Notes: generated from the letters alone by a model not told the origin. DNA of 64,000 nucleotides from Nitrosopumilus sp. (GCA_964225545.1 CAXQPB010000037.1:1989-65988); one strand, 5' to 3'. Shown: positions 2,457 to 54,460, counted from the stretch's first letter. Translations and numbers: made by a program.

Positions 2457-2690
2457 CGCTTCAACTGATACCCCACGTGGCAGCAGATAGAAACGGCGAG
2501 GACGGTCGGAGCCCCGGTCGGGCCCACGATCGGGCCAACCGGACATGTCGGGCATGGCAGACAAGGCGGGCACGCAATGACAGCCGGGCAACGCGGTCGC
2601 GACATGACTCACGACGGCCGCCCCGCTAGGCTGCCGCCCCGCGTTGTCCGCACGACCAAAGACTGCCTGCCCGGGCGCGCACTCCGAATC

Positions 2691-6569: not shown

Positions 6570-6575
6570 GAGTGA

Positions 6576-20750: not shown

Positions 20751-20937
20751 GGTCTGTCGTTTTCCCGCTTCCGCCCTTGCCCGAGCGCAAGCGGGGCCCC
20801 CGCCCGATTTCCATAGGACAGCGGCGGCTCTCTTGAAAGCCACTGCCGGCCGGATCGCACGGAACGCGCACTTCCGAAATTCATAAAAAGTGGACAACGC
20901 GTTCGCGATGGCGCGTCGAAGGCCGTAACTCCGGTTT

Positions 20938-21726
20938 ATGGACGGCTCGATCGCACAGTTGCTGATGACCAACCTCGCTCTGGTTTTTGCGGCGATGCTG
21001 ACCCTCTGGGCCCTGAGCGTCGCTCTCGGCGATGCCAGCATTGTCGATATCTGGTGGGGCCCGGGCTTCGCGGCGGTTGCCGTGGCGTCGTATGTCATGG
21101 CTGCGGACGGCAACACACTGATCACGACTCTGACGGTGGTCTGGGGCTTGCGCCTGGGCATCTACCTTCTGGTCCGCAACGCCGGCAAGGGAGAGGATCC
21201 GCGATACCGGGCCATGCGCCGCCACCATGAGCAGCGCGGACGCAGTTTCGCGCTCGTCAGCCTGCTTACTGTATTCGGACTCCAGGGCGTCCTTCAGTGG
21301 TTCATCTCGCTGCCCGTCCAGCTCGCGCAGCATGCGGGAACCCCGCCGCTCTCGTCGTGGCCGGTAGCCGCGGGGACACTGCTGTGGGCAGTCGGGCTGT
21401 TCTTCGAGACGGTCGGCGACCTCCAGCTTTCTCGCTTCAAGAAAGACTCCGCGAGTCGCGGCCAGGTGATGGATCGTGGTCTGTGGCGATACACGCGCCA
21501 CCCGAACTACTTCGGGGACTTTTGCGTATGGTGGGGTCTGTACCTCGTCGCGCTCGGTTCTCAGGCGACGTGGATGTCCATCGGCAGCCCGCTGCTGATG
21601 AGCTTTCTGCTGATGCGCGTGTCCGGCGTCCCGATGCTGGAGCGGACGATCGGCAAACGGCGACCCGGCTACGCGGAGTACATCCGTCGCACGAGCGCCT
21701 TTTTCCCGATGCCGCCGCGGGGTTGA
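20938..21726 (+). CDS. DUF1295-family membrane protein (steroid 5-alpha-reductase / isoprenylcysteine carboxyl methyltransferase-like fold).
   Basis: Multiple TM helices and the C-terminal RHPNYFGDF motif characteristic of the family. Confidence 0.7.
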   Translation: MDGSIAQLLMTNLALVFAAMLTLWALSVALGDASIVDIWWGPGFAAVAVASYVMAADGNTLITTLTVVWGLRLGIYLLVRNAGKGEDPRYRAMRRHHEQRGRSFALVSLLTVFGLQGVLQWFISLPVQLAQHAGTPPLSSWPVAAGTLLWAVGLFFETVGDLQLSRFKKDSASRGQVMDRGLWRYTRHPNYFGDFCVWWGLYLVALGSQATWMSIGSPLLMSFLLMRVSGVPMLERTIGKRRPGYAEYIRRTSAFFPMPPRG

Positions 21727-21732
21727 CGCACG

Positions 21733-22722
21733 CTACCGCCGGGCGAGATCCTCACGAATCAGCCGAAGGCCCTGCTCGTAATCGATCCGGGGCTTCCAGC
21801 CGATCGATCGGAGACGCTCGGTGTCGAATCGGTTGTCCGAACCGATCAGATTGAGGGCCTCGAGCGGAAGGACCGTCGGGTCGATCGGGTCGCCGCATGC
21901 CGCGAGGTCTTCGTTGGCGCAAGCCGCCTCACGCAGCGCCGCCTGCGGCGCGCGCGGCAGCGGCGCTTTTCCGATCATCCCGGCGAGATCATCGAAGTAG
22001 CGTGCCCAGGTGACATCGAGGCCGTCACAAACATTGTACGTGCGGCCGACCGCATCCTCGTCAGAGGCAAGTAAGAGCAGCGCGTCGGCGAGATTGTCGA
22101 CGTGCAGCAGGCCGGCGTTGCCGCTGCCCTCGTCGAGCACAGCGAGCAGATCGGCCTCGATCATCGCCAGGATCCCCTCGACCCACGGCCCGCTACCGAC
22201 GCCGTAGACGTTCGATGGCCGAACAATCACGACTTCGAGGCCCGTCGCCTCACGAACCTCGTGAGCGATGTCTTCCTGCGCCTGCTTGGCGCGGCCGTAT
22301 GCCCCCTGGTACGCGCCTCGCGGGCTTTCTTCCGAGCAGAGATCCGCGGCGATGCGATCGCCGTAGGCACAAATCGATGTCGTTACTACCACTCGCGCGC
22401 CATGCTGCGCTGCGGCCTCGTAAATGTTTCGGCTGCCCTCGGCCGTAACGCTCCAGTGGTCCTCGTACGTTCCGCCTATTCCGACCAGCGCCGCGAGATG
22501 AATGACGGTCCCGACGCCCGATATGGCCGCCTCGACCGCGGCCCGGTCACGAACGTCGCCGCGAGCTACGCGTACACGCTCGCCCCACTGCGCAGGCAGC
22601 GCCTCGTCGGGAAGCGCCATCGCCACAACCGTTTGCCCGGACTCCAGAAGCGACGCGACAACGCGCCGGCCGATGAATCCGCCGGCACCGGTCACCAGCA
22701 CCGGTCCACGAAGATCACCCAT
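21733..22722 (-). CDS. NAD-dependent epimerase/dehydratase (extended SDR; 3-beta-HSD-like).
   Basis: GAGGFIG Rossmann motif near the N-terminus. Start at MGDLRGPVLVTGAGGFIG (ATG 22720-22722), 2 nt after the stop of the upstream ADH gene. Confidence 0.8.
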   Translation of the reverse strand: MGDLRGPVLVTGAGGFIGRRVVASLLESGQTVVAMALPDEALPAQWGERVRVARGDVRDRAAVEAAISGVGTVIHLAALVGIGGTYEDHWSVTAEGSRNIYEAAAQHGARVVVTTSICAYGDRIAADLCSEESPRGAYQGAYGRAKQAQEDIAHEVREATGLEVVIVRPSNVYGVGSGPWVEGILAMIEADLLAVLDEGSGNAGLLHVDNLADALLLLASDEDAVGRTYNVCDGLDVTWARYFDDLAGMIGKAPLPRAPQAALREAACANEDLAACGDPIDPTVLPLEALNLIGSDNRFDTERLRSIGWKPRIDYEQGLRLIREDLARR

Positions 22723-26570: not shown

Positions 26571-26605
26571 GCAGCCGGTAACCGGCGCGCTCGCTACACA
26601 ACCAT

Positions 26606-27541
26606 ATGGCTTCCGGATCGAAAAAGGTCATCTACGCCGCGCTGATCGGCAACCTTCTGATCGCAATCACCAAGTTCATCGCCGGCGGGATCACCGGCAG
26701 CTCGGCCATGTTCTCCGAAGGCGTTCACTCGCTCGTCGATACCGGCAACCAGGGACTGCTGCTGCTCGGCCTGCGTCGAGCCGGCCAGGCTCCGGACGCT
26801 ACTCATCCTTACGGCTACGGGAAAGAGGTCTACTTCTGGAGCTTCGTCGTCGCGATCATGATTTTCGCGGTCGGCTCCGGAGTCTCCCTCTACGAGGGCA
26901 TCCATCGACTGCTCGACCCTCACCCGGTCTCAAGACCGCTGGTGAACTACATCGTACTCGCTCTCGCGATCGTCTTTGAAGGCGTGGCGTGGAAGATGGC
27001 GCTGAGCGAGTTCCAGGCGCAGAAGGGGAAACTCGGTTATCTCGAGGCTGTCCGGCGAGGAAAAGACCCGACCAACTTCGTGGTTCTGTTTGAGGACTCG
27101 GCGGCGATGCTCGGCTTGATCATCGCGCTCGCCGGCGTCGCGCTCGGTCAGATCACCGGCAATCCGATCTGGGACGGCGTCGCCGCGACATTGATCGGGA
27201 TCATCCTCGCATTGGTGGCAATCTGGCTCGCGTTCGAAACCAAGGGACTGCTGATCGGCGAATCCGCGCGCAGGGAAGTCGTGGAGGCCATTCAGCGGCT
27301 GGCCCGCGCAGCCGAGCACGTCGAGGCGGTCGGCGAAGTCCTGACCCTTCACATGGGTCCGAACTTCATCCTCGTAAATCTGAACGTCGGCTTCGCCGAT
27401 GTCAGCGCCGACGAGATCGAACATTCGATTGCCGGCCTCGATCGCGAGATCAAGTACCTGTTCCCGGAGGTCAAGCGCGTGTTCATCGAGGCGGAGGCGA
27501 TCAGCGGCAAACGCGGCCCGAAGAGCACCCCGCGCGGCTGA
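26606..27541 (+). CDS. Cation diffusion facilitator (CDF) family metal efflux transporter (CzcD/FieF-like).
   Basis: Six TM helices, the CDF signature (SEGVHSLVDTGNQ...) and a C-terminal cytoplasmic domain. Confidence 0.9.
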   Translation: MASGSKKVIYAALIGNLLIAITKFIAGGITGSSAMFSEGVHSLVDTGNQGLLLLGLRRAGQAPDATHPYGYGKEVYFWSFVVAIMIFAVGSGVSLYEGIHRLLDPHPVSRPLVNYIVLALAIVFEGVAWKMALSEFQAQKGKLGYLEAVRRGKDPTNFVVLFEDSAAMLGLIIALAGVALGQITGNPIWDGVAATLIGIILALVAIWLAFETKGLLIGESARREVVEAIQRLARAAEHVEAVGEVLTLHMGPNFILVNLNVGFADVSADEIEHSIAGLDREIKYLFPEVKRVFIEAEAISGKRGPKSTPRG

Positions 27542-27547
27542 ACTCGG

Positions 27548-27841
27548 ATGGACCTGCTCATGACTGCGGCGGCCTGGATGCCCGCGCTGATCTTCCCCGC
27601 CGCTACTTTCAGTCAGCTGCTCACAGTCTGGCGCGCCACGGACCGCTCGGCGGTAAGTATTCCAACGTGGTCGCTGTTCGGCTTCGCGAACCTCGGCGCG
27701 CTCGTACTCGCCGCTCCGGACGGCTCGATCGCATGGCTGCAGGCCGGGGTCGGCTTCGGCCTTACGGCCGTTCTCGATCTGCTGATCGTGATTGTCGCGG
27801 CTTCACGAATCGGCATCCCGGACGCTGCCGGCACTCACTGA
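27548..27841 (+). CDS. Small membrane protein (97 aa, 3 TM helices); possibly PQ-loop/SemiSWEET-like.
   Basis: Hydrophobicity pattern only. Begins 7 nt after the CDF stop. Confidence 0.4.
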   Translation: MDLLMTAAAWMPALIFPAATFSQLLTVWRATDRSAVSIPTWSLFGFANLGALVLAAPDGSIAWLQAGVGFGLTAVLDLLIVIVAASRIGIPDAAGTH

Positions 27842-32751: not shown

Positions 32752-33804
32752 TCAGGCCGGATCGCTCCGCGTCGGCGTCACCGCGTCCATCGAATAGCGC
32801 GGCGTACCTTCCTCGAAAAGTTTGAAGAAGTCCTCACCGAACGGGTCGACCCCGAGCATCGGCATGGACCCGCGGCGAATGGTCCAGTCCCGAGGCGAGA
32901 GCTTTCCAGCTGTCTCGAAGTGTCGGGCAGCGGCCTCCTTGCGCCCGTCTTCGTAGAGAAACCAGGCCAGCGCCCGCTCGGCTCTGGACAGCTGTGATTC
33001 GTCGGACGGACCCGGCTGGTGCTCACGAACCGCACCGGCCTCCATCGCTCCCTTTCCGGTCTTGACCCATTCGCGAATCATATCGAGATACGGCGCGGAC
33101 CGCTTGCCGTGGAATTCCGTGAAAATGTCGGTCCCGTACTGGGCGTCATGCGGCCGACAGATCACGCCTTCCTCGTTGATCCAGATCATCGTCGGAACGT
33201 TGGAGATGTTGTAGAGCTCCGCGACGACGTGACCGGTGTCGACGACACTGGGATGCGTCGAACCGGCCCGTTCGATAAACGGCCGGATGTCATCAGCGCT
33301 CCGATCCAGAGCGACCGTGAACGGGACAAAACCCTGATCGCCGAGCTCCTCGTAAAGTGCCTGCCAGACCGGCAGGTCCTCACGGCATCCTCACCAGGAC
33401 GCGTGGGCGATGAGCAGTACTTTTTTGCCTCGGTGCTGCGACAGGCTGTGAAGATTCCCGTCGAGATCGGGCAGGGAAAAATCCGGCGCCTCCAGGGACT
33501 CCATCTGCGCAGCGCGCGCGGCGCGGGGTGTGCCGATTGCAGCAGCTCTCTCGGCGACGTCGAGCGCCAGGGGGCGGTCGAGAAGGTCGGCCAGGCCCCG
33601 AAGGTCGACCTCGCCATCGACAACGAGACGAGACGGGTCCGAGACTCGGACGCAGACTTCGCCGCGACACAAGCCTTCGGGCTTGAGCTCCCATCCGATA
33701 CCCGAGTTCAGGGCATCCGGCGCGATCCGCACAGCCCCGTCGCGGATCTCCACCGGAAGCTCAATCCGTTTTTCTCCGTCGATCAAAAGGACGGGACGGT
33801 TCAT
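32752..33804 (-). CDS. Candidate selenoprotein: TlpA/ResA-like thioredoxin-fold thiol:disulfide oxidoreductase with an in-frame UGA (33391-33393) at the first redox-active position (..LLIAHASW-U-GCREDLP..). It has an N-terminal extra domain and a C-terminal extension.
   Basis: Track ORFs 33391..33804 and 32752..33189 are in the same frame, separated only by one TGA. I translated the intervening 67 codons myself and they are open. The alignment to the WCxPC redoxin motif puts the TGA exactly where the first Cys would be. A SECIS-like hairpin follows. Confidence 0.6.
33357..33383 (-). promoter_or_regulatory. SECIS-like stem-loop 8-14 nt downstream of the in-frame UGA: GUG-AGGA-CCUGCC-GGUCU-GGCAGG-CAC (mRNA sense).
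   Basis: Perfect 6 bp upper stem plus a 3 bp lower stem. The apical loop GGUCU resembles the GGUC loop of the E. coli fdhF SECIS. Position relative to the UGA is appropriate for bacterial SelB recognition. Confidence 0.45.
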
Positions 33805-34084
33805 GGCAATTGACCTCCAACCCCCCTTTTACGCCTCTGCTCGGCTGAAGGAAAAAACGCCGGATCAGGCAGCATTCCCGGCCGTGATCAGCGTCCGTTA
33901 TGCGTGCCGCGTCGGCGCCTTATGCAACGGCTCGCGAAAACTCCGAATCGGCAAGAAGGACCCGCCCGACCCGAAACATTGCCTTCCAAACCGGGGAGAA
34001 TTTGAGATACTGTCCGGAAAACCGAGCGCCTGCTCATGATATTCCGCTGACTATCGTCAGAGAACACCGGAGATTGTTGAATCG

Positions 34085-37000
34085 ATGCGCCTGAAAAACG
34101 CCCTTGCTGCCGTCAGCCTGGCTGCCGTTGTGCCGACTGCAGCTCATGCCCAGCCGTCTTACGTGAATTTCGAGTCCGGCTCCGTTCGCCCGATGGCACT
34201 CAGCCCGGACGGCACGCGGTTGTTCGCCGCGAACACACCGGACAACCGCATCGAAGTATTCGATGTCCATGCCGGTGGCATCACTCACACGGAGTCGATC
34301 CCGGTAGGAATGGACCCGGTAGCGATTGCGGCGCGCAGTAACTCCGAGATCTGGGTCGTCAACCATTTGTCCGACAGCGTATCGATCGTCGACGTGTCGG
34401 CGATTCCCGGTCGGGTCGTGACCACGCTTCTCGTCGGCGATGAACCGCGCGATATCGTCTTTGCCGGCACCGGAGGAAACAGGGCCTTCATTACCACAGC
34501 CCACCGCGGACAGCAGCGAACCAATCCCGCGATCGCCGGCGTTCCCGGAGCGGGTGATCCCCAGTTCACAGCTCCGGGAGTCGGCCGGGCGGACGTATGG
34601 GTGTTCGATGCGAACAACCTCGGATCTGCCATCGGCGGAACGCCGCTGGAAATCGTCAGCTTCTTCGCGGACACACCGCGCGGGCTCGCGAAGAAGGCGG
34701 ATGGATCAACCGTCTACGTCTGCGGGTTCAACACGGGAAACCAGACCACGATCGTCAACGAAGGCACGGTATGCGACGGCTTCCAGTCGTCAGGCGGATG
34801 CTCCGGAGACGGGATTTCGATGCCCGGCGGATTGCCGGGAGGTCAGATGCCCGGCGGTGAGCCGGGACCGAGCGCCAACATTGATGGCGTGGCGGCGCCG
34901 GAGGTCGGACTGATCGTCAAATACGACCGGCAGTCGGGAATATGGACCGATGAGCTCTCGCGGAACTGGAATAACGCCGTCCGGTTCAACCTGCCCGACG
35001 AAGACTGCTTCGCCCTCGATGCAGCTACGCTCAATCAGACGGCCGTTCACGCTCACATCGGCACGACGCTCTTCAACGCAGCGGTCCACCCGGTGACCGG
35101 TGATCTCTACGTCTCGAACCAGGAGGCGATCAACGAGGTCCGATTCGAAGGCCCGGGGACCATGACGGGCTCGACCGTCCAGGGCCGGCTGGCCGAGGCT
35201 CGTGTGACAATCATCGAGGATCCCGACACGACCGATCCAAGCGGAGCGAATGTACTCGCACGACACCTGAACAAGCACATCAATTACGCGGTTCTCGCTT
35301 CCGACCCGGGTTTCGACCCGACGGTCCGTGACCACAGCCTCGCAACCCCGCTCGAGATGGTCTTCGACTCGACGGGCACGAAAATCTACATCGCCGCCTT
35401 CGGGTCAGGGAAGGTCGGGGTGCTCGATGCAGCCGCACTCAAGAACGATTCGTTCAACCCGACCACCGCGAGCGCCGACTACATTCAGGTTTCCGGCGGA
35501 GGCCCCGCCGGTCTCATCCTCGACGAGACCAACCAGCAACTCCTCGTCCTGACGCGTTTCGACAACTCGATCTCCGTCGTCGACCTCGGCAGCAACGCAG
35601 AAACGGATCACATCGCGCTGCACAACCCGGAGCCGGCCTCCGTCACCGACGGCAGGCGCTTCCTCTACGATGCCGACTTCACGTCGGCCAACGGCGAGGC
35701 TTCGTGCTCGAGCTGCCACATCTTCGGCGACACGGACCATCTGGCGTGGAACCTCGGCGTCCCCGAGGAACATGTCACCACCAACCCGGTAGGCCCCGGA
35801 GGCATCAAGCTCGGCATCGCAGCGCCGGGAGATACCAATGGTGGCGCAGGCGTCGCCGAGTTCCACCCGATGAAGGGGCCAATGGGAACTCAGACCCTGA
35901 AGGGGCTGTCGACGCATGGCCCGATGCACTGGCGAGGCGATCGCGCCGACGGTGTTTTCGGGAGCGGGACCGGCGAAGAGCTTTCGTTCAATAATTTCAT
36001 CGTCGCATTTCAGGGCCTCGTGGGTCGCGAGTTCGCAATCACGCCGACCGACATGCAGGCATTCACCACTTTCTCGCTCGGAATGATGTTGCCGCCGAAC
36101 CCGGTCCGCGCCCTGGACAATTCGCTCACAGCCGAACAGCAGGGCGGCGCCGATTTCTACCTGGGAACCAGGCTGTCCGATGGTATCCCCGGCTTCGGTT
36201 TCACCTGCAATGGCTGTCACGTGCTCGACAGCTCGCAGGGCTTCTTCGGCACCGATGGCGGCTTCAGCTTCGAGGCCGAGACGCAGATCATGAAGGTCGC
36301 GCATCTGCGCAACCTCTACACTCGAGTCGGCATGTTCGGGATGCCCGACACCGACTTCTTCCGAAGCGGAAACAACGGCGCGCAAGGAGATCAGATCCGC
36401 GGGTTCGGCTTCATCCACGATGCATCGACGGACACGCTTTTCCGGTTCTTCACAGCGGATGTCTTCCAGGAGAACGGAAGCGTGGGCTTCGATGGTCCTC
36501 AGAACGGAGACGACAAACGCCGGCAGATGGAGTCCTTCATGCTGGCTTTCGAGAACGACGTCGCCCCGATTGTCGGCCAGCAGATCACACTCACGAGCAC
36601 CAATGCCGCCACTGTAAATTCCCGAATCGACCTGATGAGCGATCGCTGTCAGACACCCTTCGAATCGGCGACGCTCGGGGGACTGGTCACGGAGTGCGAC
36701 CTCATCGTCAAGGGAGTGTTCGGCGGAGAGGCACGCGGTGCCGTTCTGCAGGGCGGCGTGTTCATCAGCGACCGAGCCGGGGATCCCTCCTTGACCGACG
36801 CACAGATGCGCAGCCTCGCCACGACGCCCGGGCAGGAGATTACCTACACGGCGGTGCCGCCGGGCTCCGGCACGCGCATGGGCATTGATCGCGATCTCGA
36901 TAGCGTTCTGGACGGCGACGACAACTGCCCCGGCACACCGAACGCGGGCCAGGCCGATTCCGACAACAACGGCGTCGGAGATGCCTGCGAGGGCGGCGGA

Positions 37001-37537
37001 GTCACGACAACGACCACCACGTCCACGACCTCGACGACCTCGACGACATCGACAACTTCGACCACTCTGTCCGGAACCCACGGCCCGTTCCCGACTCGGT
37101 CGCTGAAGATTGCCCGGCTGACCAAGCCGGCAGGCCAGCAGAAGCTCACTCTCAAGAGCGAGGACATGGACGGCACCGGCTTGTTCTTCACCCCGCTCAG
37201 CGAGGACCTGACGATTACGCTGTCGCTTCCAAATGGAACCGTTGTGGGTTCCGCGACGATTCCCGCTGGTGATCCGGACTGGAAGGCTTCAGCCTCATCG
37301 TTCCGCTGGAAAGCCAAGGCGGCGCCGCACCCGGAAGGTCTTCGCAGCGCAAGACTGGGCAGCTCCGGACGGCCGTTCGCGTTCAGCACGAAGGCCGGGA
37401 ATATCGACGCTTCGGGGGCTGGATCGGCGGGCGCGGGCGGCTTCGTGATCACGCTGACGATCGGAGATGATGCGTGGTCGGGCCCGACACCCGGATGCCG
37501 GCTCTCCGGGAGTGGAAACACGCTGAAGTGCGGGTGA
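34085..37537 (+). CDS. Large secreted multi-domain protein (1150 aa). N-terminal signal peptide, a YVTN-type beta-propeller repeat region, a di-heme cytochrome c (peroxidase-like) domain with two CxxCH motifs (CSSCH, CNGCH), calcium-binding TSP3-like D-rich repeats, a Thr/Ser-rich linker and a C-terminal domain.
   Basis: Signal peptide MRLKNALAAVSLAAVVPTAAHA. Repeated ...PDG..L(F/Y)..N...(N/S)..V(F/I)D... propeller blades. Two CxxCH motifs about 175 aa apart. DSDNNGVGDACEGGG followed by TTTTTTSTTSTTSTTSTTSTT. Confidence 0.75.
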   Translation: MRLKNALAAVSLAAVVPTAAHAQPSYVNFESGSVRPMALSPDGTRLFAANTPDNRIEVFDVHAGGITHTESIPVGMDPVAIAARSNSEIWVVNHLSDSVSIVDVSAIPGRVVTTLLVGDEPRDIVFAGTGGNRAFITTAHRGQQRTNPAIAGVPGAGDPQFTAPGVGRADVWVFDANNLGSAIGGTPLEIVSFFADTPRGLAKKADGSTVYVCGFNTGNQTTIVNEGTVCDGFQSSGGCSGDGISMPGGLPGGQMPGGEPGPSANIDGVAAPEVGLIVKYDRQSGIWTDELSRNWNNAVRFNLPDEDCFALDAATLNQTAVHAHIGTTLFNAAVHPVTGDLYVSNQEAINEVRFEGPGTMTGSTVQGRLAEARVTIIEDPDTTDPSGANVLARHLNKHINYAVLASDPGFDPTVRDHSLATPLEMVFDSTGTKIYIAAFGSGKVGVLDAAALKNDSFNPTTASADYIQVSGGGPAGLILDETNQQLLVLTRFDNSISVVDLGSNAETDHIALHNPEPASVTDGRRFLYDADFTSANGEASCSSCHIFGDTDHLAWNLGVPEEHVTTNPVGPGGIKLGIAAPGDTNGGAGVAEFHPMKGPMGTQTLKGLSTHGPMHWRGDRADGVFGSGTGEELSFNNFIVAFQGLVGREFAITPTDMQAFTTFSLGMMLPPNPVRALDNSLTAEQQGGADFYLGTRLSDGIPGFGFTCNGCHVLDSSQGFFGTDGGFSFEAETQIMKVAHLRNLYTRVGMFGMPDTDFFRSGNNGAQGDQIRGFGFIHDASTDTLFRFFTADVFQENGSVGFDGPQNGDDKRRQMESFMLAFENDVAPIVGQQITLTSTNAATVNSRIDLMSDRCQTPFESATLGGLVTECDLIVKGVFGGEARGAVLQGGVFISDRAGDPSLTDAQMRSLATTPGQEITYTAVPPGSGTRMGIDRDLDSVLDGDDNCPGTPNAGQADSDNNGVGDACEGGGVTTTTTTSTTSTTSTTSTTSTTLSGTHGPFPTRSLKIARLTKPAGQQKLTLKSEDMDGTGLFFTPLSEDLTITLSLPNGTVVGSATIPAGDPDWKASASSFRWKAKAAPHPEGLRSARLGSSGRPFAFSTKAGNIDASGAGSAGAGGFVITLTIGDDAWSGPTPGCRLSGSGNTLKCG
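37003..37068 (+). repeat. Tandem 9 nt (acgacctcg-type) repeats encoding the poly-Thr/Ser linker of the large secreted protein.
   Basis: Seen directly. Confidence 0.7.
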
Positions 37538-37580: not shown

Positions 37581-38087
37581 CTATTCGTCGCGCAGGATGT
37601 GACAGTTATACCCGCCCGGATTCTTGTCGAGGTAATCCTGATGGTACTGCTCAGCAGTCCAGAACGGACCGAGCTCAGCAACTTCCGTCACGACCGGGTC
37701 TCGCCATCTTCCTGACTCGGCTTCTTCCTTCACGATCTCGGCTGCAATCCGTCTCTGCTCGAGCGATGAGACAAAGATCGCCGAGCGGTACTGCGTGCCG
37801 ACGTCGTTGTGCTGACGGTTGAGCGTCGTGGGGTCGTGGAGGCGGAAAAAGTAGCGCACGATCTCTGCGTAGCTGATCTTCTCCGGGTCGAATTCGACCA
37901 GGACCGCCTCGGCATGACCGGTGTGCCCTCCGCAGACGGACCGGTAGTCCGGCTTGTCCGTCAAGCCTCCCGTATACCCGACCTCCGTGCGAATGACGCC
38001 GTCGAGTTGTTTGAACAGATGCTCAACGCCCCAGAAGCAGCCTGCGGCGAGAACCGCGGTTTCGGTGGTCGTGAACGGGTCGGTCAT
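37581..38087 (-). CDS. msrA: Peptide-methionine (S)-S-oxide reductase MsrA.
   Basis: GCFWGVE active-site motif. Start set at MTDPFTTTE (ATG 38085-38087). Confidence 0.9.
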   Translation of the reverse strand: MTDPFTTTETAVLAAGCFWGVEHLFKQLDGVIRTEVGYTGGLTDKPDYRSVCGGHTGHAEAVLVEFDPEKISYAEIVRYFFRLHDPTTLNRQHNDVGTQYRSAIFVSSLEQRRIAAEIVKEEAESGRWRDPVVTEVAELGPFWTAEQYHQDYLDKNPGGYNCHILRDE

Positions 38088-38433
38088 TTCAAGTGTTCTC
38101 CACGAAACCCTCTGCATCCACAGAGAGACGAATACCGAGAATTTTCGAGAGCGTACCATCAGTCGGCTGCGACTCCCACTGCCGCCCGTCCGTCAATCGA
38201 TCGATTCAGGGGGGATCCGCTGAGACCCCGACAGCCGGCCCGAAGATCGCCGCACCCCCTGCCGGAGCGGTGACCGCCACAGGCGTCGCGCACGCCGAAG
38301 CCCGGCGTTTCTGGCTCTGCAGGCAAAAGACGCACCGGCAGCCCCGCAGACTGCTTCCCTCGAGTCGCGCGGCGGCGTATCCTCTCCCGAGTCCGCTGAA
38401 GTCTGTCGAAGGCTGCGGTGCGGACTTTTTACG

Positions 38434-44814: not shown

Positions 44815-45318
44815 ATGGGCAGCAGCCGACCGGATCTGGAAAACAGCGGAAAGTCTGACGTGCTCGCTTTGTGCGCCTGCTTCAAAGCGCGCAGCGCGGC
44901 CCGCGCCGTGACCGCGCTCTATGACGAGTCCCTCGAAACCACCGGACTCAAAATCACCCAGTTCGCCACACTCAGCGTCATCCGATCGCGAGGAACGGTC
45001 AGTATGCAGAGGCTCGCTGAGGAACTGGGGCTCGACCCGAGCACGATGTCGCGAACCCTGCGGCCCCTGGAGGCGCGCGAGCTTGTCCGATCCGGTAACG
45101 GCTCGGATCGCCGGATTCGGGAGCTATCCCTGACAGGCAGCGGCGAGAGGATTTTCCTCGAATGTCAGGCGCGGTGGACGCGAGCCCAGAGCAGGCTGAG
45201 AGAGCGCCTGGGAGAGGACACCTTCGTTCGCGTTCTCGCAGATCTGGAGACCGTGGCAGATCGACTCAACGCCTTCGACGACAGCCACGATAAGATTCAG
45301 CAGAACCCATCGAACTGA
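44815..45318 (+). CDS. MarR-family transcriptional regulator.
   Basis: Winged-HTH region (TQFATLSVIRSRGTVSMQRLAEELGLDPSTMSRTLRPLEARELV). Confidence 0.85.
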   Translation: MGSSRPDLENSGKSDVLALCACFKARSAARAVTALYDESLETTGLKITQFATLSVIRSRGTVSMQRLAEELGLDPSTMSRTLRPLEARELVRSGNGSDRRIRELSLTGSGERIFLECQARWTRAQSRLRERLGEDTFVRVLADLETVADRLNAFDDSHDKIQQNPSN

Positions 45319-45368
45319 AACCTCGTCTCGAACGAGATGGACCGGCGCCGCGCCGGAGGAGATCACCA

Positions 45369-47759
45369 GTGGGAGCAAACAGCCGAGCACAGGAAGCCCA
45401 TCCCAGCGTGTCGAGAAGCGCGATCGAGCTGGACGCGAAAAACCTGCCCACGGTCTGCGTGTTGTGCAGTCACAACTGCGGGATCCGGGTTGATGTGGAA
45501 GATGGGAGAATCACCGAGATCCGTGCCGACCATGAGAATCCGATCTCGCACGGCTACATCTGCAACAAAGCCGTTACATGCGACCGGTATGCCCATCACG
45601 AACAGCGCGTCCTGTCTCCGCTGCAGAAGCAACCCGACGGCAGCTTTGAACCTGTCGACTGGGACACGGCAATCGCCGATATAGGCGCCAGGCTGCGGAC
45701 GATTCGCGACGAACACGGACCGCGCGCGCGCGCGGCGTGCGGCGGCGGCGGGCAGGCCAACCACCTCGACATTCCGTTTCTCCAGATGTGGATGAACGCC
45801 GTCGGAACCCAGCGACTTTTCAACGCCTACGCGCAGGAGAAAACCCAGCACCACCTTATCGATCACTGGATGTTCGATGCACCTTCGACACTGGTCCTTC
45901 ATGCGGATGTGGACGAGGCGACCTACCTCGTGGTGATGGGAACGAATCCTCGAATCAGCAATCGCGGCCACAACCCGACGGAGACGTTCAAGGCCCTCGG
46001 CAAGAAAGACGCATGCAAAGTGGTGGCTGTCGACCCGCGCGAAACCGAGACTACGCGCGGCGCCGACCAACATGTCCGCGTCAGGCCGGGCGGCGACTCG
46101 TACCTGCTCATGGGGATGGCCGCATCGATCGTGCAGAACGAGTTGTACGACGCAGAGTTCGTCGAGGCTCACACAGCCGGAATGAACGAGCTCCGCGACA
46201 TCCTCTCGCGTACCGATGTCGACGAGATGGCACGGCGCGCTGGCCTCGAGGCCGCGACCATTCATTCGATGGCTCGTGAGCTCGCCGAAGCCGAACGCGG
46301 CTCGATCTTCTTCGACCTCGGTGTTGAACAGCAGCCTTTCTCAACGCTGATCTCTTATCTGATCCGTGTGGTCCTGGCGCTGACCGACAATGTCGGTCGA
46401 GCCGGCGGCGACGTGTGGCTCGAACTTCTCGTTCCTCCGACTCTCAGTTCGAGACGATTCGATGAGCCGGAGATAGCGCTGGCTTCGGGCATCCCGGCCG
46501 TGCGCGCGCTCGGCTCCGCGATGTTCTCACCGACGTTAATGCCGGAGGAGATACTCGTCGATCACCCTGAGCGCATCCGTGGCGCCATCATCGAAGGCGC
46601 CAACCCGCTCCTGTCGTACTCGGATACGAACGCATGGCGGACAGCGATCAAAAATCTCGACCTGCTGGTCGTCATCGACCCCGCCTTCACGGAAACGGCA
46701 CAGCTTGCCGACTACGTGCTGCCGCCACCTTGCGGGTATGAAAAGTGGGAGATGGCGATGTTTCCCAAGGGGCACCCGAAGGTCATGACCCAGGTGCGGC
46801 CACCGGTGATTCCAGCGCCGGAACAGGCACGAACGGAGGCCGAGATTTACTCGAGAATCTGCGAGGCGATGGAGATCCTCGAGCCGCTGCCGGACGACCT
46901 GGCGGAGATCGGGAAGCCCGAAACTGCCGAGGCGCGCGCGGCCTTCATGACACAAGCGATGGGACTGGTCGGAGATGTCGCCGCACGCGGGATCAACGCC
47001 GAATCGCAGATCACCTACTGGGCTTATCGTGGCATCGGACACCACTTTCCAGCGCCGAACCTGATCGCGGTGTGGGCACTGATGGTACGCAACGCGCTCG
47101 AACGGAGCGAGCATGTACTCGCGACGCTCGGTCCGGAGTGGGCTGAGCGCAATCCCTTCGAAATCGGCGAGGAGCTCATGCGCCGTGTTCTGGATCACCC
47201 CGAGGGCGTCGAGATCGCCGATGTTTCGGCCAAGGACAACCTGTTCGACAACATGGGCTTCGATGACAAGCGGGTGAGGCTGTCACCCGAACCGATGCTC
47301 GCCGAGATGGAGCGGTTGCTCGAGACCGACATCGCGCACGACCCCGACTACCCGTTTGTCCTCGCAAGTGGACTTCGAACACGCTGGACCGCGAACACCA
47401 TCCAACGTGCGCCGGAGTGGCGGAAAGGAAGCGGCCCGCATTGCGAGCTCAATTTGCACCCGGAAGATGCCCGATCACTCGGCGTTACCAAGGGCGACAT
47501 GGTTCGCGTGACGACAACGCGTGGCTCTTTCGAACTGCCGGCGACTCTCGACACCAAGCTGATGCAGGGTCATTGCTGGATGCCGAACGGCTTCGGCATG
47601 CAGTACGGCAAGGATGCGAACGGCCCCTTCGAGATCGAAGGTGTCAACATGAATGAGATCACCGACGTTGCGGAGCGAGACCCCTTTACCGGGTGCCCGC
47701 ATCATCGTTATGTACGGGTGAAGCTCACGTCTCTGACGACGGCCGAAGCAACGGTCTGA
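45369..47759 (+). CDS. Molybdopterin-dependent oxidoreductase catalytic subunit (MopB superfamily), paralog of 4389..6569.
   Basis: CVLCSHNCGIRV...GYICNKA N-terminal Fe-S motif and an approximately 800 aa MopB architecture. GTG start. Confidence 0.85.
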   Translation: MGANSRAQEAHPSVSRSAIELDAKNLPTVCVLCSHNCGIRVDVEDGRITEIRADHENPISHGYICNKAVTCDRYAHHEQRVLSPLQKQPDGSFEPVDWDTAIADIGARLRTIRDEHGPRARAACGGGGQANHLDIPFLQMWMNAVGTQRLFNAYAQEKTQHHLIDHWMFDAPSTLVLHADVDEATYLVVMGTNPRISNRGHNPTETFKALGKKDACKVVAVDPRETETTRGADQHVRVRPGGDSYLLMGMAASIVQNELYDAEFVEAHTAGMNELRDILSRTDVDEMARRAGLEAATIHSMARELAEAERGSIFFDLGVEQQPFSTLISYLIRVVLALTDNVGRAGGDVWLELLVPPTLSSRRFDEPEIALASGIPAVRALGSAMFSPTLMPEEILVDHPERIRGAIIEGANPLLSYSDTNAWRTAIKNLDLLVVIDPAFTETAQLADYVLPPPCGYEKWEMAMFPKGHPKVMTQVRPPVIPAPEQARTEAEIYSRICEAMEILEPLPDDLAEIGKPETAEARAAFMTQAMGLVGDVAARGINAESQITYWAYRGIGHHFPAPNLIAVWALMVRNALERSEHVLATLGPEWAERNPFEIGEELMRRVLDHPEGVEIADVSAKDNLFDNMGFDDKRVRLSPEPMLAEMERLLETDIAHDPDYPFVLASGLRTRWTANTIQRAPEWRKGSGPHCELNLHPEDARSLGVTKGDMVRVTTTRGSFELPATLDTKLMQGHCWMPNGFGMQYGKDANGPFEIEGVNMNEITDVAERDPFTGCPHHRYVRVKLTSLTTAEATV

Positions 47760-52512: not shown

Positions 52513-52984
52513 TCGCCCGGTTCTCCTTTTTCCAGCCGCAGCCCTCGGCGCGGGTCGACCGATCCTACTGAGTCGGACCGTCGGGTCTAACGCGCAGCGC
52601 TGCCTCGACAAGGGAGAACGAACACGCTGCCGATCGGAGCGCGGCAAAGATTGCTGAGGTCACTCAGGCGTAGAGTCAGCGGGCGACGCCGACACGGAAA
52701 AATCCCTTGGAGCACACCACATTTCCTCCCCACGGGCACAGAGCAACCGAATCCGTTGGCGGGCAAGATTCGAGGCGGGTGTCGCAAACACGTAGGGAAG
52801 GATGAGCCTGAGCACTTTCCCCCACATGCGTATCCACCTGGGTGAAAAATCAGGCCGAATTGAAAAAATTCCCTCTTGAAACCAGCCTTTTACAGTGAAA
52901 TTCTCACGGCACAGTTCATGCACATTCGTGTGCGGTGGGGGACTGATTCATGGCCGAGAGGTCAGAGGCCGACAGGAAACAAAG

Positions 52985-54460
52985 ATGCTTGCCCGAATCC
53001 AAAAAAACCCGCCAATTCTCAAAATTGCGCTCGCATTGGGGCTGATCCCCGGCGCATTCAGTTCACCCTCCCAAGCGGAAGGGCCCAATCTCGGTGATCA
53101 CCGAATCGACCATGCCCGCATCATCGATGGCTCGCTCTCACGCCGCCAGCTCCGCGCCGAAGGATTGCGAATCTTCACGACACCGTTCAACCGCCTCGAT
53201 GGCTACGGCGACGGCCCGATGAACCCCGAGGACACGCTGTCGGCAGGAGGTCGCCCGACTCTGGGAGGAAACGGAACCTACCTTCGTGTAAACGGACTCG
53301 ATGCCCAGACCTGCCTGGAATGCCATACCCAGATCAGCGCGGCCACGATCCCACCGAAGCTGGGCATCGGCGGAGTCGGCGGATCGGCGGCCAACGCGAT
53401 CATTCTACCAACCCAGATCGACACTGCGGACCTCCAGGACGGGGACGGCGAAGCCGGCTTCAATGGCCGATTCGCGAATCCGCCATTCCTGTTCGGAGCG
53501 AGCGGAGTCGAATTGCTGGCACTGGAGATGACCGAGGACCTGCTTGCGCTGCGCGATCAGGCAATCTCGCGGCCCGGCGACCGCATCGCTCTCGTGACGA
53601 AAGGAGTCCGCTTCGGCTCGATCGTTGCCGATGCGAATGGAGGACTCGATACCTCGGCCGTCGAGGGTGTGGACGATGACCTCATCGTGAGACCGTTCGG
53701 ACGCAAGGGTGAGTTCGCCACCACGCGGGACTTCGACATTGAAGCAATGCAGTTCCACTTCGGCATGCAGCCCGTCGAGGTAGTGGGACAGGGAGTGGAC
53801 GGCGATCGCGACGGCGTCGTTGATGAGATCACGGTCGGCGAGCTCTCCGTGCTTCAGATCTTCGCTACGACAGCACCGAGACCTTTCCAGCTCGAGCTGT
53901 CACCCGCCGGGGAGCGAGGGAGCGCGAGCTTTGTCGACCTGGGATGCGAAAACTGCCATCGATCCAGTCTCGATACGCGCGACACAAGCCTGCCACTGCG
54001 ATTTCCGGCGGAGGCCGACCAGCCGAGGCTGAACATCTACCGTCACATCAAGCTCACCCGAGGCGCCCCCGGTTTCGCTCCGAACGCCGGCGGCGGTGTA
54101 ACCGTCCCCTTGTTCGCCGATCTGAAACGACACGACATGGGAGAGGGTCTGGCAGAGGACTTCGGCCTTGTAACTTCCGAGCGGAACCGGGAGTTCACGA
54201 CCGCCAGGCTGTGGGGAATCGCGGATACCGCGCCGTACCTGCACGATGGACGCGCCACGACGCTGACCGATGTCATCCTGATGCATGGTGGCGAAGCTCA
54301 GACAGCCAGGGACCGCTTCGCGGCCCTCTCCGAAGAGGCGCGGTCGGATGTGATCGAGTTTCTGAAGAGCCTGAAAGTGCCCGACGGCAAGTTCTCCCGG
54401 CTTGTGAAACGCGAACCCAAACCGGGGAAAAAGCGTCGCGGAAAACGCGAGGGAAACTAA
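52985..54460 (+). CDS. Secreted DUF1111-family di-heme protein (putative di-heme peroxidase / thiol oxidoreductase-like) with two CxxCH motifs (CLECH, CENCH).
   Basis: Signal peptide (MLARIQKNPPILKIALALGLIPGAFSSPSQA), two heme-c motifs and an approximately 490 aa length typical of DUF1111. Confidence 0.7.
   Translation: MLARIQKNPPILKIALALGLIPGAFSSPSQAEGPNLGDHRIDHARIIDGSLSRRQLRAEGLRIFTTPFNRLDGYGDGPMNPEDTLSAGGRPTLGGNGTYLRVNGLDAQTCLECHTQISAATIPPKLGIGGVGGSAANAIILPTQIDTADLQDGDGEAGFNGRFANPPFLFGASGVELLALEMTEDLLALRDQAISRPGDRIALVTKGVRFGSIVADANGGLDTSAVEGVDDDLIVRPFGRKGEFATTRDFDIEAMQFHFGMQPVEVVGQGVDGDRDGVVDEITVGELSVLQIFATTAPRPFQLELSPAGERGSASFVDLGCENCHRSSLDTRDTSLPLRFPAEADQPRLNIYRHIKLTRGAPGFAPNAGGGVTVPLFADLKRHDMGEGLAEDFGLVTSERNREFTTARLWGIADTAPYLHDGRATTLTDVILMHGGEAQTARDRFAALSEEARSDVIEFLKSLKVPDGKFSRLVKREPKPGKKRRGKREGN

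What the first reader, a model, noticed from the sequence alone, without database searches (positions are those of the whole stretch)
32752..33804. Thioredoxin-fold gene with an in-frame UGA at the redox-active Cys position plus a SECIS-like hairpin: candidate selenoprotein
Two track ORFs on the minus strand (33391..33804 and 32752..33189) are in the same frame and separated by a single TGA (33391-33393). I translated the 67 codons in between and they are open. The readthrough product is a TlpA/ResA-like redoxin in which the TGA sits exactly where the first active-site Cys of the WCxPC motif belongs (...KKVLLIAHASW-[UGA]-GCREDLPVWQ...). 8-14 nt downstream in the mRNA there is a stem-loop GUG-AGGA-CCUGCC-GGUCU-GGCAGG-CAC, whose apical loop (GGUCU) resembles the E. 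coli fdhF SECIS loop. The motif is unusual: it reads W-U-G-C (U-x-C), not the canonical C-x-x-C spacing. The protein also carries an unrecognised roughly 100 aa N-terminal domain and a roughly 130 aa C-terminal extension, so it may represent an uncharacterised selenoprotein family. No selA/selB/selC/selD genes are in the window.
Basis: partly seen in the sequence, partly recalled or inferred. Interest (0 to 1): 0.8.

Follow-up and report, generated by a model that had tools for sequence, protein, structure and literature searches.

The report
Known-family UGC redoxin selenoprotein gene
This is almost certainly a real selenocysteine-encoding gene: one 350-residue thioredoxin-fold enzyme whose in-frame UGA is followed by a conserved recoding hairpin. 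It belongs to a selenoprotein family predicted since 2008, so it is a sound catch rather than a new discovery.

Summary
The minus-strand ORF 33804..32752 (351 codons) has one in-frame TGA, at 33393-33391 (codon 138), in the context HASW-U-GC.

Cys-type homologues carry SW-C-G-C at this site. TGA sits at the same column in 74 of the 84 loci where I located the motif. Three near-identical independent assemblies of this lineage also carry it, so a sequencing error, a pseudogene and a two-gene split are all excluded.

A 6-bp hairpin with a 5-nt loop starts 14 nt after UGA. Its core 5-bp stem is intact in 72/72 Sec forms against 69/119 Cys forms. Two synonymous loop positions covary (GC 49, CG 20, AU 2). 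The invariant loop G lies 22 nt after UGA, which fits the bacterial SECIS description.

The family is not new. It is the "Prx-like (UGC-containing)" selenoprotein of Zhang & Gladyshev (2008), and its nearest curated model is NCBIfam NF041054 "WAxxUGC_long". The window protein scores 239 bits there, below the 300-bit cutoff.

It is predicted to be a soluble three-domain protein: an N-terminal domain with no clear solved relative and an invariant CxxxxC pair, a ResA/DsbE-like redoxin domain, and a TPR-like C-terminal domain. Its function has not been tested in the papers I read. No sel genes or tRNA-Sec lie in the 64-kb window, and the rest of the genome could not be searched.

The parts
32752..33804 (-). 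Complete selenoprotein gene: 350 residues plus a terminal TGA stop at 32752-32754. ATG start at 33802-33804.
   Evidence: Full-length collinear homologues of 342-357 aa. Three near-identical assemblies carry the same gene.
33814..33818 (-). Shine-Dalgarno-like GGAGG, 9 nt upstream of the ATG.
   Evidence: Read directly from the sequence.
33391..33393 (-). In-frame TGA, codon 138: the selenocysteine codon, U of the U-G-C motif.
   Evidence: TGA in 74/84 loci and TGC/TGT in 10. Invariant Cys in 97 Cys-type homologues.
33385..33393 (-). U138-G139-C140 redox motif, at the N-terminus of the first helix of the thioredoxin fold.
   Evidence: S136, W137, C138, G139 and C140 are invariant columns. In the AF2 model of the 62%-identical Cys homologue the helix starts at residue 138.
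33360..33376 (-). SECIS core hairpin. The stem is C-CUGCC / GGCAG-G (positions 18-23 and 29-34 from the U of UGA) and the loop is GGUCU (24-28). G25 and U26 are at 33369 and 33368. Positions 24 and 27 covary.
   Evidence: RNAalifold consensus of 72 Sec forms. Pair counts: 99% paired, and 24/27 = GC 49, CG 20, AU 2. Sec versus Cys contrast. At least 8 independent 24/27 state changes.
33520..33804 (-). N-terminal domain, about residues 1-95. Mixed alpha/beta, no Pfam family and no clear solved structural relative. Carries the invariant C46 and C51 (CRGxxC) at 33652-33669 and the invariant W38.
33139..33507 (-). Thioredoxin-fold redoxin domain, about residues 100-222, of the ResA/DsbE/TlpA type.
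32800..33123 (-). C-terminal all-helical domain, about residues 228-335. TPR-like, with the conserved D-W-T-I-R-R and DPFG motifs.
   Evidence: Weak TPR_2 hit. TPR matches at profile positions 245-304. Helices 235-330 in the AF2 model. D306, T308, R310 and R311 are invariant.

Best explanation
The interval is one gene, not two. It encodes a 350-residue soluble selenoprotein of the 'UGC-containing Prx-like / TlpA-like' family.

**Recoding.** UGA at codon 138 is read as selenocysteine. A SECIS hairpin 14 nt downstream would recruit SelB carrying Sec-tRNA(Sec) to the ribosome. The hairpin has a 6-bp stem and a GGUCU loop whose invariant G lies 22 nt after UGA. The gene's own terminal TGA has no such hairpin and terminates normally.

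Shown here:
- TGA aligns with the first active-site Cys of homologues.
- TGA and both flanks are conserved across dozens of species.
- The hairpin is selectively conserved in Sec forms and covaries.

Inferred, not shown:
- The genome has selA, selB, selC and selD.
- Sec is actually inserted.

**Chemistry (inference from the fold).** Sec138 occupies the place of the attacking N-terminal Cys of the CxxC motif in ResA/DsbE-type redoxins. It would act as the nucleophile and form a strained selenenylsulfide with Cys140 two residues away (U-G-C). That bond would then be reduced by a thiol donor. One possible donor is the invariant Cys46/Cys51 pair of the N-terminal domain. The TPR-like C-terminal domain probably binds a partner or substrate.

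The protein has no signal peptide or membrane segment, so it should work in the cytoplasm, unlike ResA, TlpA and CcmG. I put about 0.9 on 'genuine Sec-encoding gene of this family' and about 0.4 on the specific reductase or peroxidase-like relay chemistry.
For: **One gene.**
- A single ORF with one TGA.
- Full-length Cys homologues of 342-357 aa are collinear over 92-99% of the length.
- The first start codon after the TGA lies 67 codons later, inside the fold.
- The AF2 model of the 62%-identical Cys homologue is one compact unit, pLDDT 95.6 and pTM 0.93.

**Sec.**
- The column is invariant Cys in 97 homologues.
- It is TGA in 74/84 loci from MAGs labelled Deltaproteobacteria/Myxococcota, Binatia, Thermodesulfobacteriota, Chloroflexota, Rokubacteria, and Alpha- and Gammaproteobacteria.
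- Three assemblies differing from the window gene by 2-3 nt all have TGA.
- TGA is otherwise the ordinary stop codon of most ORFs in the window.

**SECIS.**
- RNAalifold finds the same 6-bp stem in 72 Sec forms, 99.2% of cells paired.
- Core 5-bp stem intact in 72/72 Sec forms versus 69/119 Cys forms.
- Positions 24/27 Watson-Crick complementary in 71/72 versus 52/119.
- Both features together in 71/72 versus 29/119, Fisher p = 2e-27, not corrected for phylogeny.
- At least 8 independent changes of the 24/27 state on an NJ tree of the Sec forms.
- A published description of bacterial SECIS gives a 6-8 bp stem with a conserved loop G about 20 nt after UGA (PMC4605307). G23/U24 in the E. coli loop are described in PMC8659212.

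**Family.**
- NF041054 'WAxxUGC_long' is the top NCBIfam hit, 9.3e-71.
- GOS 'Prx-like UGC-containing' reads align at 42% over 238 aa (E 1e-64) and 59% over 114 aa (E 2e-34), together spanning the second half of the N-terminal domain, the redoxin domain and the C-terminal domain.

**Location.** The highest 19-residue hydropathy is 0.75, and the N-terminus is not hydrophobic.
Against: - No selA, selB, selD or tRNA-Sec lies in the 64-kb window or in any fetched flank. The rest of the genome could not be examined.
- There is no experimental evidence for Se incorporation in any family member in the papers read.
- The window protein, its Sec orthologue and the Cys homologues tested all score 224-275 bits against NF041054, below the curated 300-bit cutoff.
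- No Rfam family matches the hairpin.
- The hairpin lacks the 5'-side bulged U of the E. coli fdhF model, and its loop G is 2 nt further from UGA.
- The stem is built from the codons of the conserved L-P-x-W-Q peptide, so part of its conservation comes from protein constraint. 58% of Cys forms also keep the core stem.
- The Sec/Cys statistics are not corrected for phylogeny.
- The redox chemistry is inferred from the fold alone. I could not read model coordinates to check whether C46/C51 lie near U138.
Confidence: 0.9

Rival explanations
1. There are two separate genes, or a truncated product. Translation ends at the TGA, giving a 137-residue protein, and the downstream part is an independent gene, as public annotation pipelines call it.
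For: Gene callers split the locus into a 137-aa ORF plus a 145-aa or roughly 200-aa ORF in every public contig examined.
Against: - The split falls inside the active-site motif of a single thioredoxin fold.
- In the window the first start codon after the TGA is 67 codons downstream, yet those codons are conserved as protein.
- Cys-type homologues are single uninterrupted proteins.
- Some termination at UGA may still occur, as with any Sec codon.
Confidence: 0.03
2. The TGA is a sequencing or assembly error, or the gene is a recently inactivated pseudogene of a Cys-type (CGC) redoxin.
For: A single TGC-to-TGA change would produce the observed codon. Cys forms exist.
Against: - Three independent assemblies of near-identical strains carry TGA.
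- 74 of the 84 motif-bearing loci carry TGA at the same column, with no other frame disruption.
- Both halves remain under protein-level conservation.
- The hairpin is specifically preserved where TGA is present.
Confidence: 0.01
3. The UGA is read through without selenocysteine, for example by near-cognate Trp or Cys insertion, or by Cys-tRNA(Sec). This could happen in an organism that has lost or lacks full Sec synthesis, with the hairpin acting only as a read-through stimulator.
For: Sec machinery was not found in the window. Selenium incorporation is untested.
Against: - The hairpin matches the SelB-type SECIS description in stem length, position, and a G then U in the loop.
- The site is a catalytic Cys position, the usual place for Sec.
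- The family is listed as a selenoprotein family in independent surveys.
- TGA is the normal stop elsewhere in the window.
Confidence: 0.05

Closest known systems
'Prx-like (UGC-containing)' selenoprotein family (Zhang & Gladyshev 2008, GOS selenoproteome, PMC2398784). [quoted passage not shown]
   Same: - AhpC-TSA/redoxin domain and the SW-U-G-C motif followed by x-x-(D/E)-L-P-x-W-Q.
- The same N-terminal GW-x-LKPEGLC...C domain and the same C-terminal D-(W/F)-T-I-x-R...DPFG domain. GOS reads align at 42-59% identity, E 1e-64 and 2e-34.
- Many Cys (CGC) homologues exist.
   Different: Nothing essential: the window gene is another member. It comes from a 62.5% GC lineage whose nearest relatives are MAGs labelled Deltaproteobacteria/Myxococcota. 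It has His rather than Tyr, Trp or Phe four residues before Sec.
NCBIfam NF041054 'WAxxUGC_long', ResA-like WAxxUGC motif-containing protein (equivalog model, 354 positions)
   Same: It is the top NCBIfam hit (9.3e-71, 239 bits), about the same length, with the U-G-C motif. Some orthologues carry the literal W-A-S-W-U-G-C.
   Different: The score is below the curated 300-bit cutoff. The same holds for the one Sec orthologue and the nine Cys homologues tested, at 224-275 bits. The best matched stretch covers residues 26-222, so the C-terminal domain diverges from the model. The window has H-A-S-W-U-G-C.
ResA / DsbE (CcmG) / TlpA extracytoplasmic thiol-disulfide oxidoreductases
   Different: - They use C-x-x-C, not U-x-C.
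- They are membrane-anchored or secreted, whereas this protein has no signal or membrane segment.
- They lack the N- and C-terminal domains.
- The NCBIfam ResA model scores 68.9 against a cutoff of 170.
E. coli fdhF-type bacterial SECIS element
   Same: It lies immediately downstream of UGA inside the coding region. It has a short G+C-rich stem and an apical loop containing G then U (GGUC in fdhF, GGUCU here), with the loop G about 20 nt after UGA.
   Different: The loop G is at +22 rather than +20. There is no conserved bulged U on the 5' side. A lower stem is not conserved. Loop positions 24 and 27, which flank the GU, covary as a pair.

Membership tests
Bacterial selenoprotein gene (UGA recoded by SelB/SECIS) | The in-frame UGA aligns with Cys in homologues, at a catalytic or redox position. 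| tested here: met
   Invariant Cys column in 97 homologues. It is the first Cys of SW-C-G-C, at the start of helix 1 of the Trx fold.
Bacterial selenoprotein gene (UGA recoded by SelB/SECIS) | The UGA is conserved in orthologues, with protein-level conservation on both sides. | tested here: met
   74/84 loci have TGA and the ORFs are open on both sides. Three near-identical assemblies agree.
Bacterial selenoprotein gene (UGA recoded by SelB/SECIS) | A SECIS hairpin directly downstream: a 6-8 bp stem with a conserved loop G about 20 nt after UGA. | tested here: met
   6-bp stem at positions 18-23/29-34, loop GGUCU, invariant G25 at 22 nt after UGA. The criterion is taken from PMC4605307.
Bacterial selenoprotein gene (UGA recoded by SelB/SECIS) | The hairpin is under selection beyond what the protein sequence requires. 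| tested here: met
   Core stem plus the 24/27 pair are intact in 71/72 Sec forms versus 29/119 Cys forms. The 24/27 pair is GC 49, CG 20, AU 2, with at least 8 independent state changes. Not corrected for phylogeny.
Bacterial selenoprotein gene (UGA recoded by SelB/SECIS) | selA, selB, selC (tRNA-Sec) and selD are present in the same genome. | not testable with these tools
   None in the 64-kb window or in fetched flanks. The window's genome is not in the searchable genome collection (best hit 68% identity), and only 10-kb flanks of related contigs can be read.
Bacterial selenoprotein gene (UGA recoded by SelB/SECIS) | Selenium is demonstrably incorporated at the UGA position. | not testable with these tools
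   This needs 75Se labelling or mass spectrometry.
UGC-containing Prx-like / TlpA-like selenoprotein family (Zhang & Gladyshev 2008) | A pfam00578 (AhpC-TSA) domain with a U-G-C motif. | tested here: met
   AhpC-TSA 2.9e-15. W-U-G-C at codons 137-140.
UGC-containing Prx-like / TlpA-like selenoprotein family (Zhang & Gladyshev 2008) | Sequence homology to the published member sequences. | tested here: met
   BLASTP to two GOS reads from the paper's Dataset S1: 42% over 238 aa (E 1e-64) and 59% over 114 aa (E 2e-34).
NCBIfam NF041054 WAxxUGC_long (equivalog) | Whole-protein score at or above the curated cutoff of 300 bits. | tested here: not met
   239 bits for the window protein. The ten relatives tested score 224-275 bits.
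NCBIfam NF041054 WAxxUGC_long (equivalog) | The W-A-x-x-U-G-C motif. | tested here: inconclusive
   The window has H-A-S-W-U-G-C, with His in place of the first Trp. Several orthologues have W-A-S-W-U-G-C.
ResA/TlpA/CcmG thiol-disulfide oxidoreductases | Thioredoxin fold of the ResA/DsbE type. | tested here: met
ResA/TlpA/CcmG thiol-disulfide oxidoreductases | A C-x-x-C active site. | tested here: not met
   U-G-C here, and C-G-C in the Cys homologues.
ResA/TlpA/CcmG thiol-disulfide oxidoreductases | Signal peptide or membrane anchor, giving an extracytoplasmic location. | tested here: not met
   No hydrophobic segment. The highest 19-residue Kyte-Doolittle mean is 0.75.
ResA/TlpA/CcmG thiol-disulfide oxidoreductases | NCBIfam ResA or TlpA model cutoffs. 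| tested here: not met
   ResA 68.9 against 170. TlpA 37.8 against 230.
Peroxiredoxin (AhpC/Prx/BCP) | A peroxidatic Cys or Sec in the P-x-x-x-(T/S)-x-x-C/U motif. | tested here: not met
   By inspection, the context is L-I-A-H-A-S-W-U, with no Pro at -7 and no Thr/Ser at -3. The NCBIfam peroxiredoxin models score about 17 bits.

The most novel reading that the evidence does not exclude

A second, smaller novelty concerns the SECIS. It appears to present an invariant GU (or GG) dinucleotide flanked by a covarying pair on a 5-6 bp stem, with no conserved lower helix. That would be a compact SelB-binding element whose demands dictate the encoded residue: Val in 68/72 Sec forms, mostly Gly in Cys forms.
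Probability: 0.3. Interest if true: 0.5.

Novelty: new member of a known kind. Interest (0 to 1): 0.3.

Why it matters
- **Annotation.** Every public contig I examined splits this gene into two 'hypothetical protein' ORFs. The locus should be annotated as one 350-residue selenoprotein.
- **Physiology.** The gene marks the host lineage as a likely selenocysteine user.
- **Open function.** The family is widespread: at least 584 related loci among species-representative genomes, and the nearest 80 are mostly Sec forms. None of the papers I read reports a functional test. It is therefore a reasonable target for working out what a U-x-C centre does that C-x-x-C or U-x-x-C does not.
- **SECIS test set.** The paired Sec and Cys sequence sets give a clean natural experiment on which SECIS positions are constrained: the stem, a covarying 24/27 pair and the G25-U26 dinucleotide.

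None of this changes current understanding of Sec decoding.

Tried and rejected
- **Rfam.** A scan of the whole window at gathering threshold and of 33250-33450 at E <= 10 gave no SECIS or tRNA-Sec family. There was only a chance snoRNA hit at E 6.9.
- **tRNA-Sec.** ARAGORN on the window and on all fetched loci found none.
GUG/CAC (positions 11-13 with 35-37) is not conserved: 65% paired, no better than shuffles.
- **Alternative hairpin.** The 71-nt minimum-free-energy fold pairs GGACC with GGUCU. This is incompatible with the CCC-GUG variants found in 20 orthologues, so I rejected it.
- **Other TGA-separated ORF pairs.** Same-frame pairs at 1635-4385(+), 20929-22074(+) and 26582-27841(+) have no redox motif at the TGA. 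They look like ordinary stops followed by junk or small ORFs.
- **Pfam on 30 large ORFs.** No SelA, SelB or SelD.
- **Structure prediction of the window protein with U replaced by C.** I used the 62%-identical Cys homologue P0001, and separately the window's own N-terminal 100 residues.
- **Foldseek against AFDB.** The library was unavailable.
- **Exact-protein lookup of the 137-aa N-terminal ORF.** Not on record. The neighbouring Fe-ADH did retrieve near-identical contigs.
- **Literature search for 'WAxxUGC'.** No paper found.
- **Operon context.** The neighbours differ among L001, L002, L003 and the window, so the gene appears to stand alone.

Full report
**1. The observation**

Reading the minus strand from 33804 to 32752 gives 351 codons with a single internal stop. 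This is TGA at 33393-33391 (codon 138), in the context KKVLLIAHASW-TGA-GCREDLPVWQ.

A GGAGG lies 9 nt upstream of the ATG at 33804. After the TGA, the first in-frame ATG/GTG/TTG is ATG 33189, 67 codons later.

Pfam places an AhpC-TSA/Redoxin domain at residues 105-215, spanning the TGA.

**2. One gene, with Cys at that column in homologues**

A search of the large protein collection, with U replaced by C, returned two kinds of hit:

- Hundreds of full-length relatives of 342-357 aa, at 42-62% identity and covering 90-99% of the query.
- Fragments of about 200 aa that are the closest relatives of all, at 63-68% identity, but start just after the TGA column.

In the alignment every full-length protein has S-W-C-G-C-R-(E/Y)-D-L-P at this site. 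S136, W137, C138, G139 and C140 are invariant over 98 sequences. The Cys family therefore has a C-x-C centre, and the window has U-x-C.

DNA for three of the fragment proteins shows a 137-141 codon ORF directly upstream, in frame. It is separated from the fragment by TGA in the context ASW-TGA-GCREDLPVWQ.

**3. How widespread the TGA is**

A scan of one genome per species found at least 584 related loci. The 80 best come from MAGs labelled Deltaproteobacteria/Myxococcota, Binatia, Thermodesulfobacteriota, Chloroflexota/Dehalococcoidia, Rokubacteria, and Alpha- and Gammaproteobacteria.

At the active-site column 74 of 84 loci have TGA, 9 have TGC and 1 has TGT. This count includes the window, the three loci above and one duplicate contig.

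The window's own genome is not in that collection; the best match is 68% identical. The neighbouring Fe-ADH protein retrieved three independent assemblies of near-identical strains: two NCBI MAGs and one Logan assembly. Their copies of this gene differ by 2-3 nt and all have TGA at codon 138.

A sequencing error, a private pseudogene and a real two-gene arrangement are therefore excluded. TGA is also the ordinary stop of most coding-like ORFs in the window, so the genetic code has not been reassigned globally.

**4. The SECIS element**

Positions are counted with the U of UGA as 1.

- **Consensus structure.** RNAalifold on 72 distinct Sec-form sequences predicts a 6-bp stem, 18-23 with 29-34 (C-CUGCC / GGCAG-G), and a 5-nt loop, 24-28 (GGUCU in the window). 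99.2% of cells are paired. Slid controls give 24-56%.
- **Contribution of the protein sequence.** The stem is built from the codons of the conserved peptide D-L-P-x-W-Q, so I asked whether the protein alone explains it. I collected 119 distinct Cys-form sequences with a pattern that does not presuppose the hairpin.

| Feature | Sec forms | Cys forms |
|---|---|---|
| Core 5-bp stem intact | 72/72 | 69/119 |
| Positions 24/27 complementary | 71/72 | 52/119 |
| Both features | 71/72 | 29/119 |

  Cys forms freely use CTC/CTT/CTA for Leu and CAA for Gln. Positions 24 and 27 are the third bases of the Pro codon and the following codon. For both features together Fisher p = 2e-27, without phylogenetic correction.
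- **Covariation.** In Sec forms the 24/27 pair is G-C 49, C-G 20, A-U 2 and other 1. Its state changes at least 8 times on a neighbour-joining tree of the Sec forms.
- **Loop bases.** Between positions 24 and 27 lie an invariant G25 and U26 (68/72). This forces Val at that residue in Sec forms, whereas Cys forms mostly have Gly.
- **Fit to the published description.** Bacterial SECIS elements are described as a 6-8 bp stem with a conserved loop G about 20 nt after UGA (PMC4605307). The E. coli fdhF element depends on G23 and U24 in its loop (PMC8659212). Here the G is 22 nt after UGA.
- **What did not hold up.** No Rfam model matches.

**5. What the protein is**

- **NCBIfam.** The top hit is NF041054 'WAxxUGC_long, ResA-like WAxxUGC motif-containing protein', at 9.3e-71 and 239 bits against a cutoff of 300. 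One Sec orthologue and nine Cys homologues score 224-275 bits, all below the cutoff.
- **Literature.** The family is already listed as a predicted selenoprotein family:
  - 'Prx-like (UGC-containing)', pfam00578, with 46 selenoproteins and 855 Cys homologues in the GOS data (PMC2398784).
  - 'UGC-containing Prx-like protein' (PMC9312934).
  - A single UXC Prx-like read, noted in 2005 (PMC1088965).
- **Match to published sequences.** Reads in the 2008 paper's Dataset S1 carry the same N-terminal GW-x-LKPEGLC..C segment, SWUGC, and the C-terminal D-F-T-I-V-R...DPFG. They align to the window protein at 59% over 114 aa (E 2e-34) and 42% over 238 aa (E 1e-64). The window gene is a further member of this family.

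**6. Structure and likely mechanism**

- **Whole protein.** AF2 on the closest full-length Cys homologue (P0001, 62% identical) gives a very confident single compact model, pLDDT 95.6 and pTM 0.93. The helix following the motif starts at residue 138.
- **C-terminal domain.** It is helical and TPR-like.
- **Location.** There is no hydrophobic segment or signal-like N-terminus. The protein should therefore be cytoplasmic, unlike ResA, TlpA and CcmG.
- **Mechanism (inference).** Sec138 takes the place of the attacking Cys. It would form a selenenylsulfide with Cys140 across one Gly. From my own knowledge, not tested here, engineered C-G-C centres are more oxidising and more isomerase-like than C-x-x-C centres. 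The centre would be recycled by a thiol donor, possibly C46/C51. The substrate is unknown.

**7. What could not be settled**

No tRNA gene and no SelA, SelB or SelD among 30 large ORFs lie in the window. No tRNA-Sec lies in any fetched flank.

A 64-kb window says little about a whole genome, and the tools do not allow the rest of any related assembly to be read. Sec insertion therefore rests on comparative evidence, which is strong.

**8. Verdict**

The finding is a correct, well-observed selenoprotein gene: a new member of a known but functionally untested family.

My estimates are:

- About 0.9 that it is a genuine Sec-encoding gene of this family.
- About 0.4 for the specific relay chemistry.

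Interest is modest. Its value lies in correcting the annotation, in marking the lineage as a probable Sec user, and in the clean Sec-versus-Cys contrast that defines the constrained SECIS positions.

Noticed in passing
L205:8229-9281, L206:8229-9281, L207:3716-4768, L001:9566-10606, L002:9530-10594, L003:9554-10612: Every public contig examined annotates this selenoprotein as two separate ORFs with no Pfam hit: 137-141 aa plus 145-203 aa. The JGI-sourced C-terminal fragments are named 'hypothetical protein'. This is a systematic mis-annotation of the family.
   Followed up: yes
L082:3405 and L082:4551 (Dehalococcoidia MAG SB0662_bin_5): Two tandem paralogues of the gene lie about 1.1 kb apart. 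Both have TGA at the active site and an intact hairpin.
   Followed up: partly
window 33367-33369 (codon 146) and alignment A2 columns 25-27: The codon inside the SECIS loop is Val (GUN) in 68/72 Sec forms but mostly Gly (GGN, 68/119) in Cys forms. The RNA element seems to dictate an amino acid of the protein.
   Followed up: yes
window 34085-37537 (+): A 1150-aa ORF is divergently transcribed from the selenoprotein gene and has no Pfam hit. It has a hydrophobic N-terminus resembling a signal peptide, two C-x-x-C-H haem-binding-like motifs (CSSCH, CNGCH) and a Thr/Ser-rich linker (TTTTTSTTSTTSTTSTTSTT). It is conserved next to the gene in L205-L207.
   Followed up: no
window 37584-38192 (-), 52895-54457 (+): Other oxidative-stress-type genes lie nearby: MsrA (PMSR, 6.6e-65) 3.8 kb upstream on the same strand, and a di-haem oxidoreductase/peroxidase-like protein (DHOR). 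No operon link to the selenoprotein gene was seen in relatives.
   Followed up: no
window 4392-6575 (-), 45294-47756 (+): Two molybdopterin oxidoreductases with Fe4S4 domains belong to a family that includes Sec-containing formate dehydrogenases. Both are uninterrupted ORFs here, so they do not carry an in-frame TGA. I did not align the residue at the Sec position.
   Followed up: no
window 1635-4385 (+), 20929-22074 (+), 26582-27841 (+): Three other same-frame ORF pairs with coding-like composition are separated by a single TGA. None has a redox motif or recognisable homology across the TGA, so they look like ordinary stops.
   Followed up: partly
window 33366-33379 (-): In the window sequence an alternative small hairpin (GGACC pairing with GGUCU) competes with the SECIS stem and wins in the 71-nt minimum-free-energy fold. 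It is not compatible with the CCC-GUG variants in orthologues.
   Followed up: yes
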